Positions 59,901 through 64,000 of a stretch of DNA of 64,000 bases are shown here, in pieces. The position numbers are program-made. The first letter of the stretch is position 1. Every line of letters begins with the position of its first letter. The stretch comes from an uncultured Campylobacter sp. (lineage in GTDB: Bacteria; Campylobacterota; Campylobacteria; Campylobacterales; Campylobacteraceae). The stretch spans positions 4,333 to 68,332 of the forward strand of contig CAMUNZ010000001.1 of the NCBI GenBank assembly GCA_947090385.1, read 5' to 3'.

Positions 59901-62900
59901 AATAATAAAAAATTATTAAGCAAAATGCTAATCGAGCGAAATTTAATCCGCGTGGATGATAAAACTTTAAATAATTATCTTAATTTATACGCAAATGAAA
60001 AATCAGTTTTGATGGATGAAATTCAGTTAAAAGCCGTCCAAAAACTTTTTGAAATCGGTTATAAAGCCGGATTTTATAGTGATTTAATCGATGTAAAAGC
60101 GAATTTAATCCCGACAGAATATGAGGATTTTAGATTTTGTTGATAAATTTTTCGAAATTTTCATCTGTGAAAATCGGCGGAATTTTTGAAGTCAAAATTA
60201 TAGAAGAAAACAGCGATTTTAAAGGCACGATAATCGGTGGAGCAAATAATATATTAATCTCGCAAAATCCTGGAAATTTGGGAATTTTAAGCGACAAATT
60301 TAAATATATTTTTATTGATAAAGACGGATTTTTAAACATCGGTGCAAAAACAAAATCAAGCGAAATTTATAATTTTGCAAAAAAAAATAATCTCGCAAAT
60401 TTTGAATTTCTTAAAAACATTCCAGGCACTCTTGGCGGACTTTTAAGCATGAACGCTGGGCTTATGAATTATGAAATTTCAAATAATCTAATCAGTTTAA
60501 AAACAAATTTTGGTGAATTTCAAAAAAACGAACTTAAATTTTCGTATCGAAAAAGCGAAATTTTTGGAATAATTTTTGAAGCAAAATTTAAAATCTTAAA
60601 AGGATTTGATGAAAATTTAAGTCAAGAAATTTCACAAAAAAGAAAAAATCAACCACGTGGTGCAAGTTTTGGAAGTTGTTTTAAAAATCCAAAAAATTTT
60701 AGCGCCGGAAAACTTTTGCAAGATTGCGATTTGAAAGGTTACAAAATCGGAAATTGCGGATTTAGCGAAATTCACGCAAATTTTTTGATAAATTATGGTG
60801 ATGGAAAATTCGAAGAAGCCATAAAACTTATAAATTTAGCTAAAAAAAGAGTTTTCGAAAAATTCGGGATAAATTTAGAATGCGAAGTAAAAATTTTATG
60901 ATAAAGTTTGTGGATTTTATAAAAAATCCACTAAAAACGATATTTTAGCAAAGATTATAAACTTTTCATGGCATTTATTATAAAGTTTATAGATTTTTCT
61001 ATCCCAAATTTTGATGTATCTATGCATAAATCATAATAAACGCTATCGCCCCATTTTTCATTTGTGTAATAGTTATGAAATGATTCTCTATTTGTATCTT
61101 CGTTTTCTATAAAATCAGCCGCTTCTTCTTTTGTCAGGCTTTCGATGTTCATTATCCTTTTGATTTTAAATTCGCTACTTGCGTGTAAAAAAACGGATAA
61201 AAAATCTTTATTTCGCCTTAAAAAATAGTTTGCACATCTTCCAACTATGATATAATCGCCGTCGCTAGTAAGTTTATTGTAAATTTCTTTTATGCTGTCA
61301 CTTTTTTCTACTGCAACTTCATTTTTTACAATTGCCTGCAAAAGCGAATTTACTGGTTTTTCTTTATAAAGTCTATTCATCTCTTCAAAATAACCGTAAT
61401 CCTTAGCCTTTTGAAGCAATTTTTCTTTATTTAGATATGTAAAACCAAGTTCTTTTGAAAGTTTAAAAGCTATTTCTCTACCGCCACTTCCTGTTTGTCG
61501 TCCTATCGATATAATCATAATTAATCCTTTTAAATTTAAAAAAATGTAGCAAAAATAGACGCGCCAACGACTGTTAAAAGCCCACTTACCGCGATAGATA
61601 AAGACGCCATCGCTCCTTCGATGTCGCCATATTCTATGGCTTTTGCAGTTCCTATAGCATGAGAAGCGCATCCTAACGCTATTCCTTTTGCTATTTTACT
61701 TTTTATTCTAAAAATTTTAAATAAACCATCAGCCACAACGCTACCAAAAATACCAGTCATTATTATAACAGCCACGCTTATCGTAACTATGCCGCCGAGT
61801 TGATGTGATATGCCCATGCCAATAGGTGTAGTTACGGATTTTGGTAATAACGTCACATACATTTGATGATCAAGTCCAAATAAAACACTCAGACCTAAAA
61901 TGCTTAACAACCCAAAAAACACACCGCTTAAAATTCCTATGATTATCGCTATATAATTGTGCTTTAATAAATCAAGTTGTTCGTAAAGTGGCACAGCCAA
62001 ACAAATCGTCGCAGGAGTTAGAAAAAAACTTATATGTTTAGCGCTTGCATTAAATTTATCATAAGGTATATCAAATAAATAAAGGCACAAAATGCAAAAA
62101 ACGATAGCTAACAAAAGCGGATTTAATATGGCAAATTTAAATTTTCTTTTTAACAAAATACCAATTTGATGTGTAGCCAAACACAAAAATACACCAAAAA
62201 ATGCAGAATTTAAAAAAACTTCTTTCATAAACTTCTTCTTTGTCTTTTTTTTCTAAAATAATAAACACTTTGTGTTACAAAAGCACTTGCTAATATCACA
62301 ACAACCGTGCTAATGACGACTATGGTAACAATTGGGAAGAAATTTTTTAAAATTTCATTTTGTGTATTTATAAGTCCAACTCCAGCAGGAATAAAAATAA
62401 TTGGCATAATTTCTATAAAAAATATCGCAGTTTCTTTTATCTGATAAACTTTTATTACTTTAAAATACAAAGCAAAAAACATAATTACAAGTCCATAAAC
62501 GCTACTTGGAATGTTCCCCGGCACATCATAACTCAACATTTCTGCTAAAAAAGAAATTCCTAAAATAATCATAATTTGTCTTAAATATTTCATTTTTTTC
62601 CTTTGAAAATTTCTGTGGATTATATATCAATTTTTGATAGAAATTTATAAATTTAAACATAAAAAAAACAAACTTATAAATTATCAAATTTCAAATAATT
62701 TAATCAAATTAAAAATGTTAGTTTTTGAAAAATTCGGTATAAATTTAAAATGCTAAATAAAAATTTTATGATATAGCCTTAAATTTAAGGCTATTTTTGT
62801 AATTTTTCTTTTATTTTTATTATTTTTTCTATTTGTTCTGAATTATTTTCATGTAAAGCGTCCATCAAAAGCCCATTTAAGATAATATTTGATAATTTTT

Positions 62901-64000
62901 TATCTAAACAAATCGGAGTTAAAGTTTCTCCTCTAGATTTTGGATAATCATCCCAACATATGCCGATCGTATCATCACCTTTACATTCTCCAAAAAATAC
63001 ATTTAAAGTATCTTCATCGTATAATTCTTCTTTAAATTTCCAAAATGACGCTAATTTTGATGTATCAAACATAACTTTTCCTTTTTATAAATATAAAAAA
63101 GGCTCTAGCATAAACTAGAGCCAAATTGAAAGGCGATTTTATCAAAAATTGCCTCTATTTTTTTAACTATTAAATTAAACCTTATGGTTTTTTTGGTGTT
63201 GCTGCGCCTGTTGCTGCGCCTGTTGCTGCGCCTTCAAAACTAACACCTTGACCACCAAATTTTAGTGTTTTTGCAGTTTTTCCACCATCTTTAGAAGCTA
63301 TATTTGTTTTAACTTGTGCAAGTCCCGGCATAGCCCATACCTTTGCACATAAACCTTCTTCAGTAACTGTTACACCAATCTCACCTTTCGCATCATCACC
63401 TTTGTCCGCCCATTTAAAGCATTCTTGAGTTTTTACTTTTACAGGATTAGGAACATTTGTCATTTGTCCTACTGTTCCAAATACACCTTGTGAAGTATAA
63501 TAAGATCCAACATCTGAAATAGTTGTTTGGATATTTGTAGCTGCTTTTGAAATTTCTGCGTCATCTCTAGTTGCTGCTAGTCTTGGGATAGCAACTGCTG
63601 CTAAGATACCTAAAATAACGATCACGAAGATCAACTCTATCATAGTAAAACCTCTTCTCATGGTTTTCTCCTTAAAATTTATTTCACCTTACACACTCAA
63701 AGGTAAAAATTTTTGATAGATTTTTCAAAAGCCTTCGTATCAACATCATCAAAAAACATTTGAGAATAAACACAATTTATTTGTGTCAAATTTGAATGAC
63801 CTAAATTTTTGGCTATAAAAAGTGGTGAAATAGAATTTTTAATTAATAAACTCACATAAGTATGGCGTATAGTATGAAGGCCAAAACTTGGAATTTTTAT
63901 TTTTTTTAAAAATTTTTTAAACTCATAATACATACCAAAATAATCTTTAGTAAAAATTTTCCCACTTTTTTGTGGAAGTTTTTCTATAAAATTTAATAAA

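What the first reader, a model, noticed from the sequence alone, without database searches (positions are those of the whole stretch)
60841..64000. Duplicated murB 3' end next to an integrase fragment: likely boundary of an integrated element using murB as attB
A 53-55 nt stretch at 62715-62775 is ~89% identical to the last codons of murB (60851-60903). It is in the same orientation, and the similarity ends exactly at the stop codon. Each copy is followed by a different palindromic hairpin. Direct repeats of a gene's 3' end are the classic footprint of site-specific integration into that gene. Immediately to the right lie a small unknown gene, a higher-GC pilin-like gene with a tandem repeat, and the C-terminal half of a tyrosine integrase that runs off the window. 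The simplest model is tandem or sequential insertions at a murB-3' att site. One small unit (cmk-like, lrgB, lrgA) would lie between the two copies, and a larger integrase-bearing element would extend to the right.
Basis: seen in the sequence. Interest (0 to 1): 0.65.

Follow-up and report, generated by a model that had tools for sequence, protein, structure and literature searches.

The report
Decayed murB duplicate beside inserted operon
The repeated murB tail is real, but it is the decayed stump of a second murB copy, left when an ordinary chromosomal operon was inserted long ago; it is probably not the attachment site of a mobile element, so the finding is an ordinary rearrangement scar.

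Summary
The repeat is confirmed: 60850-60906 matches 62720-62776 at 89%, same orientation, ending 5 nt after the stop. The second copy is more than a tail. Just upstream, 62673-62715 matches an internal murB piece (60461-60503, 88%). So copy 2 is a 5'-truncated murB pseudogene with a 342-nt internal deletion, a nonsense codon and G/C-to-A/T decay. It still carries a canonical terminator.

The 1.71 kb between the copies (lrgA-lrgB-cytidylate-kinase-like, 60953-62663) is a chromosomal operon. In three sister lineages it lies between uvrA and tauE, and homology stops sharply at the operon edges. It encodes no recombinase. The arrangement was the same in every conspecific contig read.

I read this as an old insertion-duplication scar made by non-site-specific recombination. 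That mechanism is inferred.

The integrase at the window edge has its closest homologues inside multi-pilin loci of relatives. There they sit between inverted pilin 5' repeats, just upstream of a pilin gene as here, with no murB nearby. The only contig that extends the gene shows an in-frame stop.

The att-site reading is not supported. It is not strictly excluded, because sequence beyond about 64.3 kb could not be obtained.

The parts
60137..60901 (+). Intact murB (254 aa), the functional copy
   Evidence: Pfam MurB_C E=2.8e-27. The identical protein occurs on 15-21 conspecific contigs. Orthologues in relatives are 68-80% identical.
60461..60503 (+). Internal murB segment (nt 325-367) that is repeated as remnant piece 1
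   Evidence: family D3 (88%); (E=2e-9).
60850..60906 (+). murB 3' end including the stop codon: repeat copy 1
   Evidence: family D1.
60907..60952 (.). 46-nt spacer of unknown origin with a hairpin at 60910-60932. It lies between the murB tail and the inserted operon. There is no T-run after the hairpin on the + strand.
   Evidence: Fold. It was not called as a + strand terminator. It has no homologue in any fetched locus and lies outside the homology to L017.
60953..62663 (-). Inserted chromosomal operon with its own upstream region: cytidylate-kinase-like 60955-61521, lrgB 61536-62228, lrgA 62225-62593, and the lrgA upstream region 62594-62663
   Evidence: Pfam and NCBIfam. It is 91.7% identical over 1711 nt to L017 9567-11275, with sharp ends. 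It is 81% identical to L014 and 79% to L016. In all three relatives the operon lies between uvrA and tauE. Substitutions against L017 are concentrated at third codon positions, so the genes are still under purifying selection.
62664..62672 (.). A-rich junction or filler between the operon and the murB remnant. The length of the adjoining A-run (indels at 62661 and 62668) varies between strains.
   Evidence: Alignment ends. Indels at 62661 and 62668 in L006 and L001.
62673..62715 (+). murB remnant piece 1 (murB nt 325-367)
   Evidence: Substitutions are polarised with four outgroup murB genes.
62720..62776 (+). murB remnant piece 2 (murB nt 714-770, including the old stop codon): repeat copy 2. 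It contains a GAA-to-TAA nonsense change at 62754.
62773..62804 (+). Canonical intrinsic terminator (9-bp stem plus TTTTTGTAATT) directly after the remnant's stop codon. I infer it is murB's original terminator. It also ends the convergent 93-aa gene.
62791..63072 (-). 93-aa gene of unknown function, downstream of the pilin gene
   Evidence: No hit in Pfam, NCBIfam or PHROGs. A 33% homologue directly follows the 85%-identical pilin in L058. Weak homologues occur on Aliarcobacter plasmids.
63182..63661 (-). Type IV pilin-like gene (159 aa) with a C-terminal 12-nt repeat of 3.1 copies at 63197-63233
   Evidence: N_methyl and TIGR02532. TRF. Homologues of 84-85% identity sit in the multi-pilin loci L021 and L058.
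63490..63709 (-). Conserved pilin 5' element, from about -48 to +170 around the ATG. In relatives this element is the repeat unit, in direct and inverted orientation, of multi-pilin loci.
   Evidence: Alignment. Repeats. Three conspecific contigs end inside it, at 63602, 63687 and 63694.
63697..64000 (-). C-terminal 100 codons of a tyrosine recombinase that runs off the window. Its 3' end overlaps the pilin 5' element.
   Evidence: Pfam PF00589 and PHROG_1 at E=6e-35. L009 extends it by 325 nt and shows an in-frame TAA. The closest homologue is L046 8833-9513, at 55.6% identity.

Best explanation
This is an old insertion-duplication scar.

Proposed history. In the ancestor, murB ended with its own terminator and faced the convergent 93-aa and pilin genes. 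A 1.71-kb chromosomal operon (lrgA-lrgB-cytidylate-kinase-like, with 70 nt of its own upstream region) then entered murB at about nt 325. The event regenerated a complete murB upstream of the insert. It left the original murB sequence from about nt 325 to the stop, plus the terminator, downstream of the insert. In sister lineages the same operon lies between uvrA and tauE.

Mechanism (inferred). Both novel junctions look illegitimate. I think one non-site-specific event made them. It could have been single-crossover integration of a circular intermediate carrying the operon joined to a murB 3' fragment. It could equally have been a replicative template switch (murB end, then the operon, then back to murB nt 325). 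The data cannot separate these two.

What happened afterwards. The stranded copy had no function and decayed. It lost 342 nt between A-runs, gained a nonsense codon and accumulated G/C-to-A/T changes.

The recombinase. The tyrosine recombinase 0.9 kb to the right belongs to the neighbouring pilin locus and played no part in the insertion.

Shown: the anatomy, the origin of the insert, the decay, and the conservation within the species. Inferred: the recombination mechanism, and which copy is the original.
For: 1. Copy 2 consists of two collinear murB pieces, not just the tail (families D1 and D3, E=5.5e-16 and 2e-9).
2. Of 10 substitutions, 8 are G/C-to-A/T in the remnant and none is the reverse. 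Five hit positions that are invariant in four outgroup murB genes, including GAA-to-TAA.
3. Only the remnant is followed by a canonical + strand terminator. This fits it being the original gene end.
4. The insert is 91.7% identical over 1711 nt to the uvrA-lrgA-lrgB-cmk-tauE locus of L017. Homology stops at 62663 and 60953, the operon borders. L014/L015 and L016 show the same context.
5. The insert holds no recombinase or other mobility gene.
6. Relatives keep eno-recA-mqnA-murB on the left but have unrelated genes on the right.
7. All seven conspecific contigs read have the same arrangement at 98.7-99.8% identity. The exact LrgB protein occurs on 20 contigs.
8. The timing is coherent. The remnant differs from murB by 10.5%. 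The insert differs from L017 by 8.3% overall and about 18% at third codon positions. That is about half the distance to the nearest murB-bearing relative, which is about 34-36% at third positions.
9. The recombinase's closest homologues lie between inverted pilin 5' repeats, immediately upstream of a pilin gene, with no murB sequence nearby.
Against: - The architecture (a full gene, then the insert, then a 3' gene fragment in direct orientation) is exactly what site-specific integration into a gene's 3' end also produces.
- The murB 3' end is a synteny breakpoint in three lineages, which could hint at a recombination hot spot.
- A tyrosine recombinase lies within 1 kb.
- The 46-nt spacer (60907-60952) has no identified source.
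- No clear microhomology could be read at either junction after about 10% divergence.
- I could not show whether this species still has, or lacks, the operon at uvrA-tauE.
- I could not read the sequence beyond about 64,325.
Confidence: 0.6

Rival explanations
1. The murB 3' end is an attB for a tyrosine recombinase. The cmk-lrgBA unit would be a small integrase-less element or an element remnant, captured between attL and an internal att copy. A larger recombinase-bearing element would extend to the right, as with prophage e14 in icd.
For: - Direct repeat of the gene's 3' end, ending at the stop codon, with a 16-nt identical core.
- A tyrosine recombinase with its catalytic motifs lies 0.9 kb away.
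- Its detectable database relatives include Helicobacter phage integrases at 34-40% identity.
- The recombinase product is found on only one other contig, against 20 contigs for LrgB, so it may vary between strains.
- Synteny breaks at the murB 3' end.
- The e14 precedent, a full icd gene plus an icdC C-terminal pseudogene flanking the prophage, is documented (PMC13626634).
Against: - Copy 2 starts mid-gene at murB nt 325, which means at least 443 nt were duplicated, and it is decayed.
- The insert is a chromosomal operon with a conserved home locus in three lineages and no mobility gene.
- Two non-phage genes separate the remnant from the recombinase.
- The closest recombinase homologues (55.6% in L046, about 32% in L058) are embedded in pilin loci without any murB fragment.
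- The gene carries an in-frame stop in L009, and so does its homologue in L058.
- There is no compositional break and no tRNA.
- The arrangement is identical in all conspecific contigs read.
Confidence: 0.1
2. The structure was imported by natural transformation through homology-facilitated illegitimate recombination. A donor strain already had murB followed by cmk-lrgBA. Its DNA recombined homologously in the 5' part of the recipient's murB and joined illegitimately at recipient murB nt 325. The functional murB 3' part would then be donor-derived and the remnant would be the recipient's original.
For: - It gives the same architecture.
- Campylobacter species are naturally competent (my own knowledge).
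- This kind of recombination is an established route: a homologous anchor at one end and an illegitimate join at the other (PMC3240628 abstract).
- At 3-4 synonymous sites the remnant keeps the state shared by most outgroups, while the functional copy is derived. A diverged donor allele would allow that pattern.
Against: - No lineage with murB directly followed by cmk-lrgBA was found other than this species.
- In every relative the operon is at uvrA-tauE.
- The 8:0 G/C-to-A/T asymmetry and the amount of divergence are explained by decay alone.
- As described, this route usually deletes recipient DNA rather than duplicating it (my own knowledge).
Confidence: 0.15
3. The structure arose in two steps: a tandem duplication of a block running from mid-murB through cmk-lrgBA, followed by deletion of the second operon copy.
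For: Tandem duplication is the commonest spontaneous rearrangement in bacteria (my own knowledge). It would also yield a 5'-truncated second murB copy.
Against: - It requires cmk-lrgBA to have been next to murB already, which no relative shows.
- The DNA after the two murB ends differs from 5 nt past the stop codon. A tandem duplicate would share its downstream flank.
- It needs an extra, precisely placed deletion.
Confidence: 0.05

Closest known systems
Prophage e14 in icd of E. coli K-12 (full icd plus the icdC C-terminal pseudogene)
   Same: A complete gene, inserted DNA, then a C-terminal fragment of the same gene in direct orientation. The copies differ by a few substitutions (PMC13626634).
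   Different: In e14 the insert is a prophage with its own integrase and it excises. Here the insert is a 1.7-kb housekeeping operon without a recombinase. The fragment starts mid-gene, has an internal deletion and a nonsense codon, and the arrangement appears fixed in the species.
Insertion-duplication by single-crossover (Campbell-type) integration, or homology-facilitated illegitimate recombination
   Same: The topology matches: a restored full gene upstream and a 5'-truncated duplicate downstream that keeps the original flank. The junctions look illegitimate. The organism belongs to a naturally competent genus (PMC3240628 for the mechanism).
   Different: No circular intermediate or donor has been identified, and microhomology at the junctions is unreadable. 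This is a natural, ancient event and not an experimental construct.
R64/IncI shufflon (Rci recombinase and pilV) and other pilin or surface-protein inversion systems, such as Campylobacter fetus sap (my own knowledge)
   Same: This comparison concerns the right-hand part only. A tyrosine recombinase gene sits among several pilin genes that share conserved 5' segments in inverted orientation (L046 and L058). The shufflon generates PilV variants by multiple inversions (PMC5430464 abstract).
   Different: In the shufflon the repeats are short sfx sites within 3' pilV segments on a plasmid. Here the repeats are 160-250-nt 5' gene segments on a chromosome. Inversion has not been shown. The recombinase ORF is interrupted in L009 and L058 and lacks an N-terminal domain in L046. 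The second arm cannot be seen in the window.
LrgAB/CidAB operons
   Same: LrgA and LrgB family membership is clear from Pfam, at 87 and 264 bits.
   Different: Scores fall below the NCBIfam equivalog cut-offs. The operon is coupled to a Cytidylate_kin2-family gene in this clade.

Membership tests
Integrative element using a gene 3' end as attB (e14/icd type) | Direct repeats of the target gene's 3' end flank the inserted DNA | tested here: met
   60850-60906 matches 62720-62776 at 89%, with a 16-nt identical core.
Integrative element using a gene 3' end as attB (e14/icd type) | A site-specific recombinase is encoded inside the flanked DNA, next to an att site | tested here: not met
   The three genes between the copies are Cytidylate_kin2, LrgB and LrgA. 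The only recombinase lies outside, 0.9 kb to the right, behind two other genes.
Integrative element using a gene 3' end as attB (e14/icd type) | The flanked DNA is foreign or mobile: it is absent from the chromosomes of relatives or found at the same att site in them | tested here: not met
   The same operon sits in a conserved chromosomal context (uvrA and tauE) in L014/L015, L016 and L017. There is no GC break.
Integrative element using a gene 3' end as attB (e14/icd type) | A further att copy marks the far end of the recombinase-bearing element, or excision or an empty site is seen | not testable with these tools
   No sequence beyond about 64,325 could be fetched. There is no third copy within the 64-kb window.
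Insertion-duplication scar (Campbell-type or illegitimate recombination) | A full-length gene upstream and a 5'-truncated duplicate downstream, in direct orientation, with the insert in between | tested here: met
Insertion-duplication scar (Campbell-type or illegitimate recombination) | The downstream duplicate keeps the original downstream flank | tested here: inconclusive
   Only the remnant is followed by a canonical + strand terminator. No relative with an empty murB-terminator-93-aa site was found to prove it.
Insertion-duplication scar (Campbell-type or illegitimate recombination) | The source locus of the insert is identifiable and homology ends at sharp breakpoints | tested here: met
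   Homology to L017 covers 62663-60953, 91.7% over 1711 nt.
Insertion-duplication scar (Campbell-type or illegitimate recombination) | Microhomology or filler DNA at the novel junctions | tested here: inconclusive
   There is a 9-nt A-rich filler at 62664-62672 and a 46-nt spacer of unknown origin at 60907-60952. Divergence hides any microhomology.
Tyrosine recombinase (PF00589) | A catalytic domain with the R...K...HxxR...H...Y residues in an intact ORF | tested here: inconclusive
   The domain is detected. HTIRH, LGHSNL and VY are visible in the window. ARCGE and TPKNG are visible in L009. L009 has an in-frame TAA, but the contig has only 1.45x coverage and that position lies outside the window.
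Pilin inversion or shufflon-like system | Inverted repeats within pilin genes flank a segment that carries, or adjoins, the recombinase gene | tested here: inconclusive
   This is met in the relatives. L046 has arms 8561-8724 and 9954-10117 at 96%. L058 has arms 11857-12081 and 13896-14120 at 85%. In the window only one arm (63490-63709) is visible, and the other would lie beyond 64,000.
Pilin inversion or shufflon-like system | Both orientations demonstrably occur in a population | not tested
   This needs long reads or read-pair analysis, and no read data were available here.

The most novel reading that the evidence does not exclude
The recombinase at the window edge, with the pilin gene it abuts, may be one arm of a chromosomal pilin-switching locus in an uncultured Campylobacter clade. 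In this reading several pilin genes share a conserved 5' element of about 220 nt, in direct and inverted orientation, and a tyrosine recombinase is embedded between inverted copies, as seen in L046 and L058. That would be a shufflon-like or sap-like antigenic variation system for type IV pilin. To my knowledge no such system has been described in Campylobacter.
Probability: 0.3. Interest if true: 0.55.

Novelty: new member of a known kind. Interest (0 to 1): 0.25.

Why it matters
The murB repeat itself matters little. It is a cautionary example. A gene-3' direct repeat next to an integrase-family gene looks like an att-site duplication. Here, though, the repeat is most simply read as a decayed pseudogene left by an ordinary rearrangement that moved a chromosomal operon.

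It does document one concrete and datable case of an operon (lrgAB-cmk) moving within a Campylobacter lineage while an essential gene stayed intact.

The more useful lead is the by-product. The integrase appears to belong to a family of recombinases embedded in highly plastic multi-pilin loci. If those recombinases are active, the loci would form a pilin variation system worth testing with long-read data.

Tried and rejected
1. A third murB piece at 62640-62668 (79% to 60362-60390; families D7 and D12). I first read it as part of the remnant. I rejected it because that stretch is homologous to the lrgA upstream region of L017 and L014.
2. Extending the window to the right.
   - The pilin protein is not on record.
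   - The contigs carrying the 93-aa protein and murB end in the pilin gene.
   - The genome-contig scan with murB returned only a Sulfurimonas locus at 50% identity, so the source species is apparently not in that collection.
   - A search with the integrase C-terminus found a single 78-aa protein on a 629-nt contig, which adds only 325 nt.
3. The IMG/VR scan with the recombinase found nothing. Plasmid hits were all below 32% identity.
4. The closest murB relatives were checked as a possible empty site. L010, L018 and L019 (79-80% aa identity) have unrelated DNA after murB, so they do not provide a true empty site.
5. I tested whether L017 is a paralogous second operon copy in the same species. 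This is unlikely, because its LrgB occurs on 2 contigs against 20 for the window's. It is not excluded.
6. The origin of the 46-nt spacer and of the terminator was sought in all fetched loci, with no match.
7. There is no tRNA or Rfam family anywhere in the window, and no compositional island signal.
8. The 93-aa protein has no hit in phage genomes and only weak hits to hypothetical genes on Aliarcobacter plasmids. This was not informative.
9. The 24-nt repeat between the murB end (60895-60918) and the inside of cmk (60974-60997), 88% identical (family D2), was considered as junction microhomology. I rejected it because it lies 20-40 nt inside the operon homology.
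Full report
**Observation**

The repeat is real. Window 60850-60906, the last 17 codons of murB plus the stop and 5 nt beyond it, matches 62720-62776 at 51/57 identical, ungapped and in the same orientation. BLAST gives 49/54 identical, E=5.5e-16 against murB and 4.6e-14 against the whole window, and there is no third copy in the 64 kb. 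Similarity ends 5 nt after the stop. Each copy is followed by a different stable hairpin.

The flanking gene calls hold:
- MurB
- a Cytidylate_kin2-family protein
- LrgB
- LrgA
- a 93-aa orphan
- an N_methyl pilin-like protein with a perfect 12-nt repeat of 3.1 copies
- the C-terminal part of a PF00589 tyrosine recombinase that runs off the window

Four bases upstream of copy 2, 62673-62715 matches an internal part of murB, 60461-60503 (38/43 identical, E=2e-9). The two pieces are collinear with murB. Their offsets (2212 and 1870 nt) differ by 342 nt, a multiple of three.

Copy 2 is therefore the remains of at least the last 443 nt of a murB gene that later lost an internal stretch between two A-runs. 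It is not a short att core.

I polarised the ten substitutions with four outgroup murB genes. Eight are G/C-to-A/T in the remnant and none is the reverse. Five hit positions that are invariant in all the murB genes compared, and one of these creates a stop (GAA to TAA at 62754). This is the signature of a dead copy drifting under AT-biased mutation.

Only the remnant is followed by a canonical + strand intrinsic terminator, a 9-bp stem at 62773-62794 plus a T-run. The hairpin after the functional murB has no T-run on the + strand. I infer that the remnant with its terminator is the original 3' end of murB.

**What lies between the copies**

The organism is an uncultured Campylobacter. Its best named murB relative is C. 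corcagiensis at 68%.

The LrgB protein has close relatives at 96%, 85% and 81% identity. In all three lineages the same three genes, lrgA-lrgB-cmk2, lie between uvrA and tauE/trpE (L017, L014/L015 and L016).

Nucleotide homology between the window and L017 is 91.7% over 1711 nt. It stops sharply at window 62663, which is 70 nt upstream of the lrgA ATG, and at 60953, which is 2 nt past the cmk stop. L014 and L016 give the same borders to within about 2 nt.

The segment between the murB copies is thus a chromosomal operon with its own upstream region, lifted out of a conserved locus. It has no recombinase, transposase or other mobility gene.

Substitutions against L017 are concentrated at third codon positions, for example 7/5/33 by codon position in lrgB. 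The operon is therefore still under purifying selection.

A 46-nt spacer with a hairpin (60907-60952) and a 9-nt A-rich filler (62664-62672) make up the two novel junctions. Neither has a detectable source.

**Age and distribution**

Seven conspecific metagenome contigs share the arrangement, wherever they overlap it, at 98.7-99.8% identity. Those that reach the remnant carry it. The exact LrgB and MurB proteins occur on 20 and 15 contigs.

The remnant differs from murB by 10.5%. The operon differs from L017 by 8.3% overall and about 18% at third codon positions. The nearest relative for which murB is known (L018) differs by 34-36% at third positions in eno, recA, mqnA and murB. The event is therefore old, roughly half-way back to the nearest sampled sister, and appears fixed.

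L017's LrgB type is on only 2 contigs against 20. L017 is therefore more likely a rarer sister lineage than a second copy in the same genome.

**Comparative context of murB**

The left flank eno-recA-mqnA-murB is conserved in every relative, but the right flank is not.
- Three lineages have inositol phosphatase, citrate synthase and a Na/H exchanger there (L011, L012, L013).
- The closest lineage has DUF4197, pepF, SDF and metK (L018/L019).
- The window has the operon, the remnant and the pilin genes.

Nothing on either side is shared between these arrangements. The murB 3' end is thus a synteny breakpoint in this clade. No true empty site (murB, terminator, 93-aa gene) was found.

**The integrase**

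Its C-terminal 100 residues match only one protein among 5.8 billion, a 78-aa product on a 629-nt contig. That contig (L009) is identical to the window over 307 nt and extends the gene by 325 nt. It shows the Arg and Lys motifs, but also an in-frame TAA. The contig has only 1.45x coverage, so the stop needs confirmation.

Among phage genomes, the best matches are Helicobacter phage integrases at 34-40% identity.

A scan for relatives of the neighbouring pilin gave much closer recombinase homologues. L046 has one at 55.6% over 207 aa, and L058 has one at about 32%, or 48% over the conserved core.

In both loci the recombinase gene sits between inverted copies of the pilin 5' region. L046 has arms 8561-8724 and 9954-10117, 96% identical and 1229 nt apart. 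L058 has arms 11857-12081 and 13896-14120, 85% identical and 1814 nt apart. In both, the recombinase lies immediately upstream of, and in the same orientation as, a pilin gene, exactly as in the window.

Further points about these loci:
- L058 carries six pilin genes that share a conserved element of about 220 nt, from -48 to +170 around the ATG.
- L058 has a homologue of the window's 93-aa gene directly after the 85%-identical pilin.
- Abi_2 and other small genes are interspersed among the pilin genes.
- No murB fragment is present in these loci.
- The L058 recombinase is also interrupted by an in-frame stop, and the L046 ORF lacks the N-terminal SAM-like domain.

Three conspecific contigs end inside the window's copy of the pilin 5' element, at 63602, 63687 and 63694. 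That is what a multi-copy repeat does to short-read assemblies.

I conclude that the recombinase is part of a plastic pilin locus. It is not a marker of a murB-targeting element.

**Mechanism**

A full gene, an insert, then a 5'-truncated duplicate that keeps the old downstream flank is the classic outcome of insertion-duplication. Two routes fit:
- Campbell-type single crossover of a circle that carries the insert joined to a gene fragment
- a replicative template switch, from the murB end to the operon and back to murB nt 325

Site-specific integration into a gene's 3' end gives the same picture, as in e14 with icd and icdC (PMC13626634). Architecture alone therefore cannot decide between them. 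Four things tip the balance to a non-site-specific event: the identity of the insert, the absence of a recombinase in it, the mid-gene start of the duplicate, and the pilin affiliation of the nearby recombinase.

A variant is import from a donor by homology-facilitated illegitimate recombination (PMC3240628). It is possible, but it needs a donor with murB followed by cmk-lrgBA, and none was found. Tandem duplication followed by deletion is disfavoured, because the two murB ends have different downstream flanks.

**Limits**

- I could not obtain sequence beyond about 64,325, so the third-copy test remains open.
- I could not inspect this species' uvrA-tauE locus.
- I found no empty site.
- The junctions are too diverged to read microhomology.

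**Verdict**

The pilin and recombinase arrangement seen in relatives is the more interesting lead, and it is recorded separately.

Noticed in passing
L046 8039-10430; L058 4900-14400; window 63182-64000: Homologues of the window's recombinase sit between inverted copies of a conserved pilin 5' element in multi-pilin loci. L058 has six pilin genes and L046 has three. The layout suggests a pilin switching or shuffling locus. The window shows only one arm.
   Followed up: partly
L009 249-251 (about window 64,072-64,074); L058 13105-13158: The recombinase ORF carries an in-frame stop in the only contig that extends the window's gene. Its L058 homologue has one too, at a different position. The L046 ORF (226 aa) lacks the N-terminal SAM-like domain. 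These may be decaying genes, or the L009 stop may be a sequencing error in a contig with 1.45x coverage.
   Followed up: partly
window 63164-63233: The pilin 3' end varies between strains. It holds a perfect 12-nt repeat of 3.1 copies (encoding GAAT-type repeats). L001 is 13 nt shorter over its aligned span, which fits one repeat unit fewer plus one base lost from the A-run. L003 and L004 have indels at 63164-63184. Several assemblies break here.
   Followed up: partly
window 45204-45650: There is a second pilin-like gene (148 aa) between a psd-like gene and priA. In relative L022, homologues of both window pilins lie in one tandem cluster before priA. The 63-kb pilin therefore looks displaced from the canonical cluster.
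   Followed up: partly
window 60901 and the equivalent position in L011, L012, L013, L018: The murB 3' end is a synteny breakpoint. Lineages that share eno-recA-mqnA-murB on the left have three unrelated right-hand neighbourhoods.
   Followed up: yes
window 61536-62228: Outside a few Campylobacter lineages, the next-best LrgB matches are from Blautia and other Clostridia at about 63% identity. That is almost as close as more distant Campylobacter (66-67%). It may reflect an old transfer between phyla.
   Followed up: no
L058 9953-9975 and paralogues; window 63686-63709: A perfect palindrome, TTTACATA-N5-TATGTAAA, lies 26-48 nt upstream of most pilin ATGs in relatives. It could be an operator, a promoter element or a recombinase site. 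In the window it is degenerate and overlaps the end of the recombinase ORF.
   Followed up: no
window 62791-63072; L058 10539-10889; L020 4004-4282: The 93-aa orphan has a 33% homologue directly after the 85%-identical pilin in L058. It also has about 32% homologues on Aliarcobacter plasmids, next to a Shedu-family nuclease gene. Its function is unknown.
   Followed up: partly
window 60895-60918 and 60974-60997: A 24-nt direct repeat (88%) links the murB end and hairpin arm to a site inside the 3' end of the cmk-like gene. It lies inside the operon homology, so it is probably chance.
   Followed up: partly
window 50196-50225: A 30-nt match (93%, minus strand) to remnant piece 1. The sequence is AT-rich and low in complexity, so the match is probably chance.
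   Followed up: no
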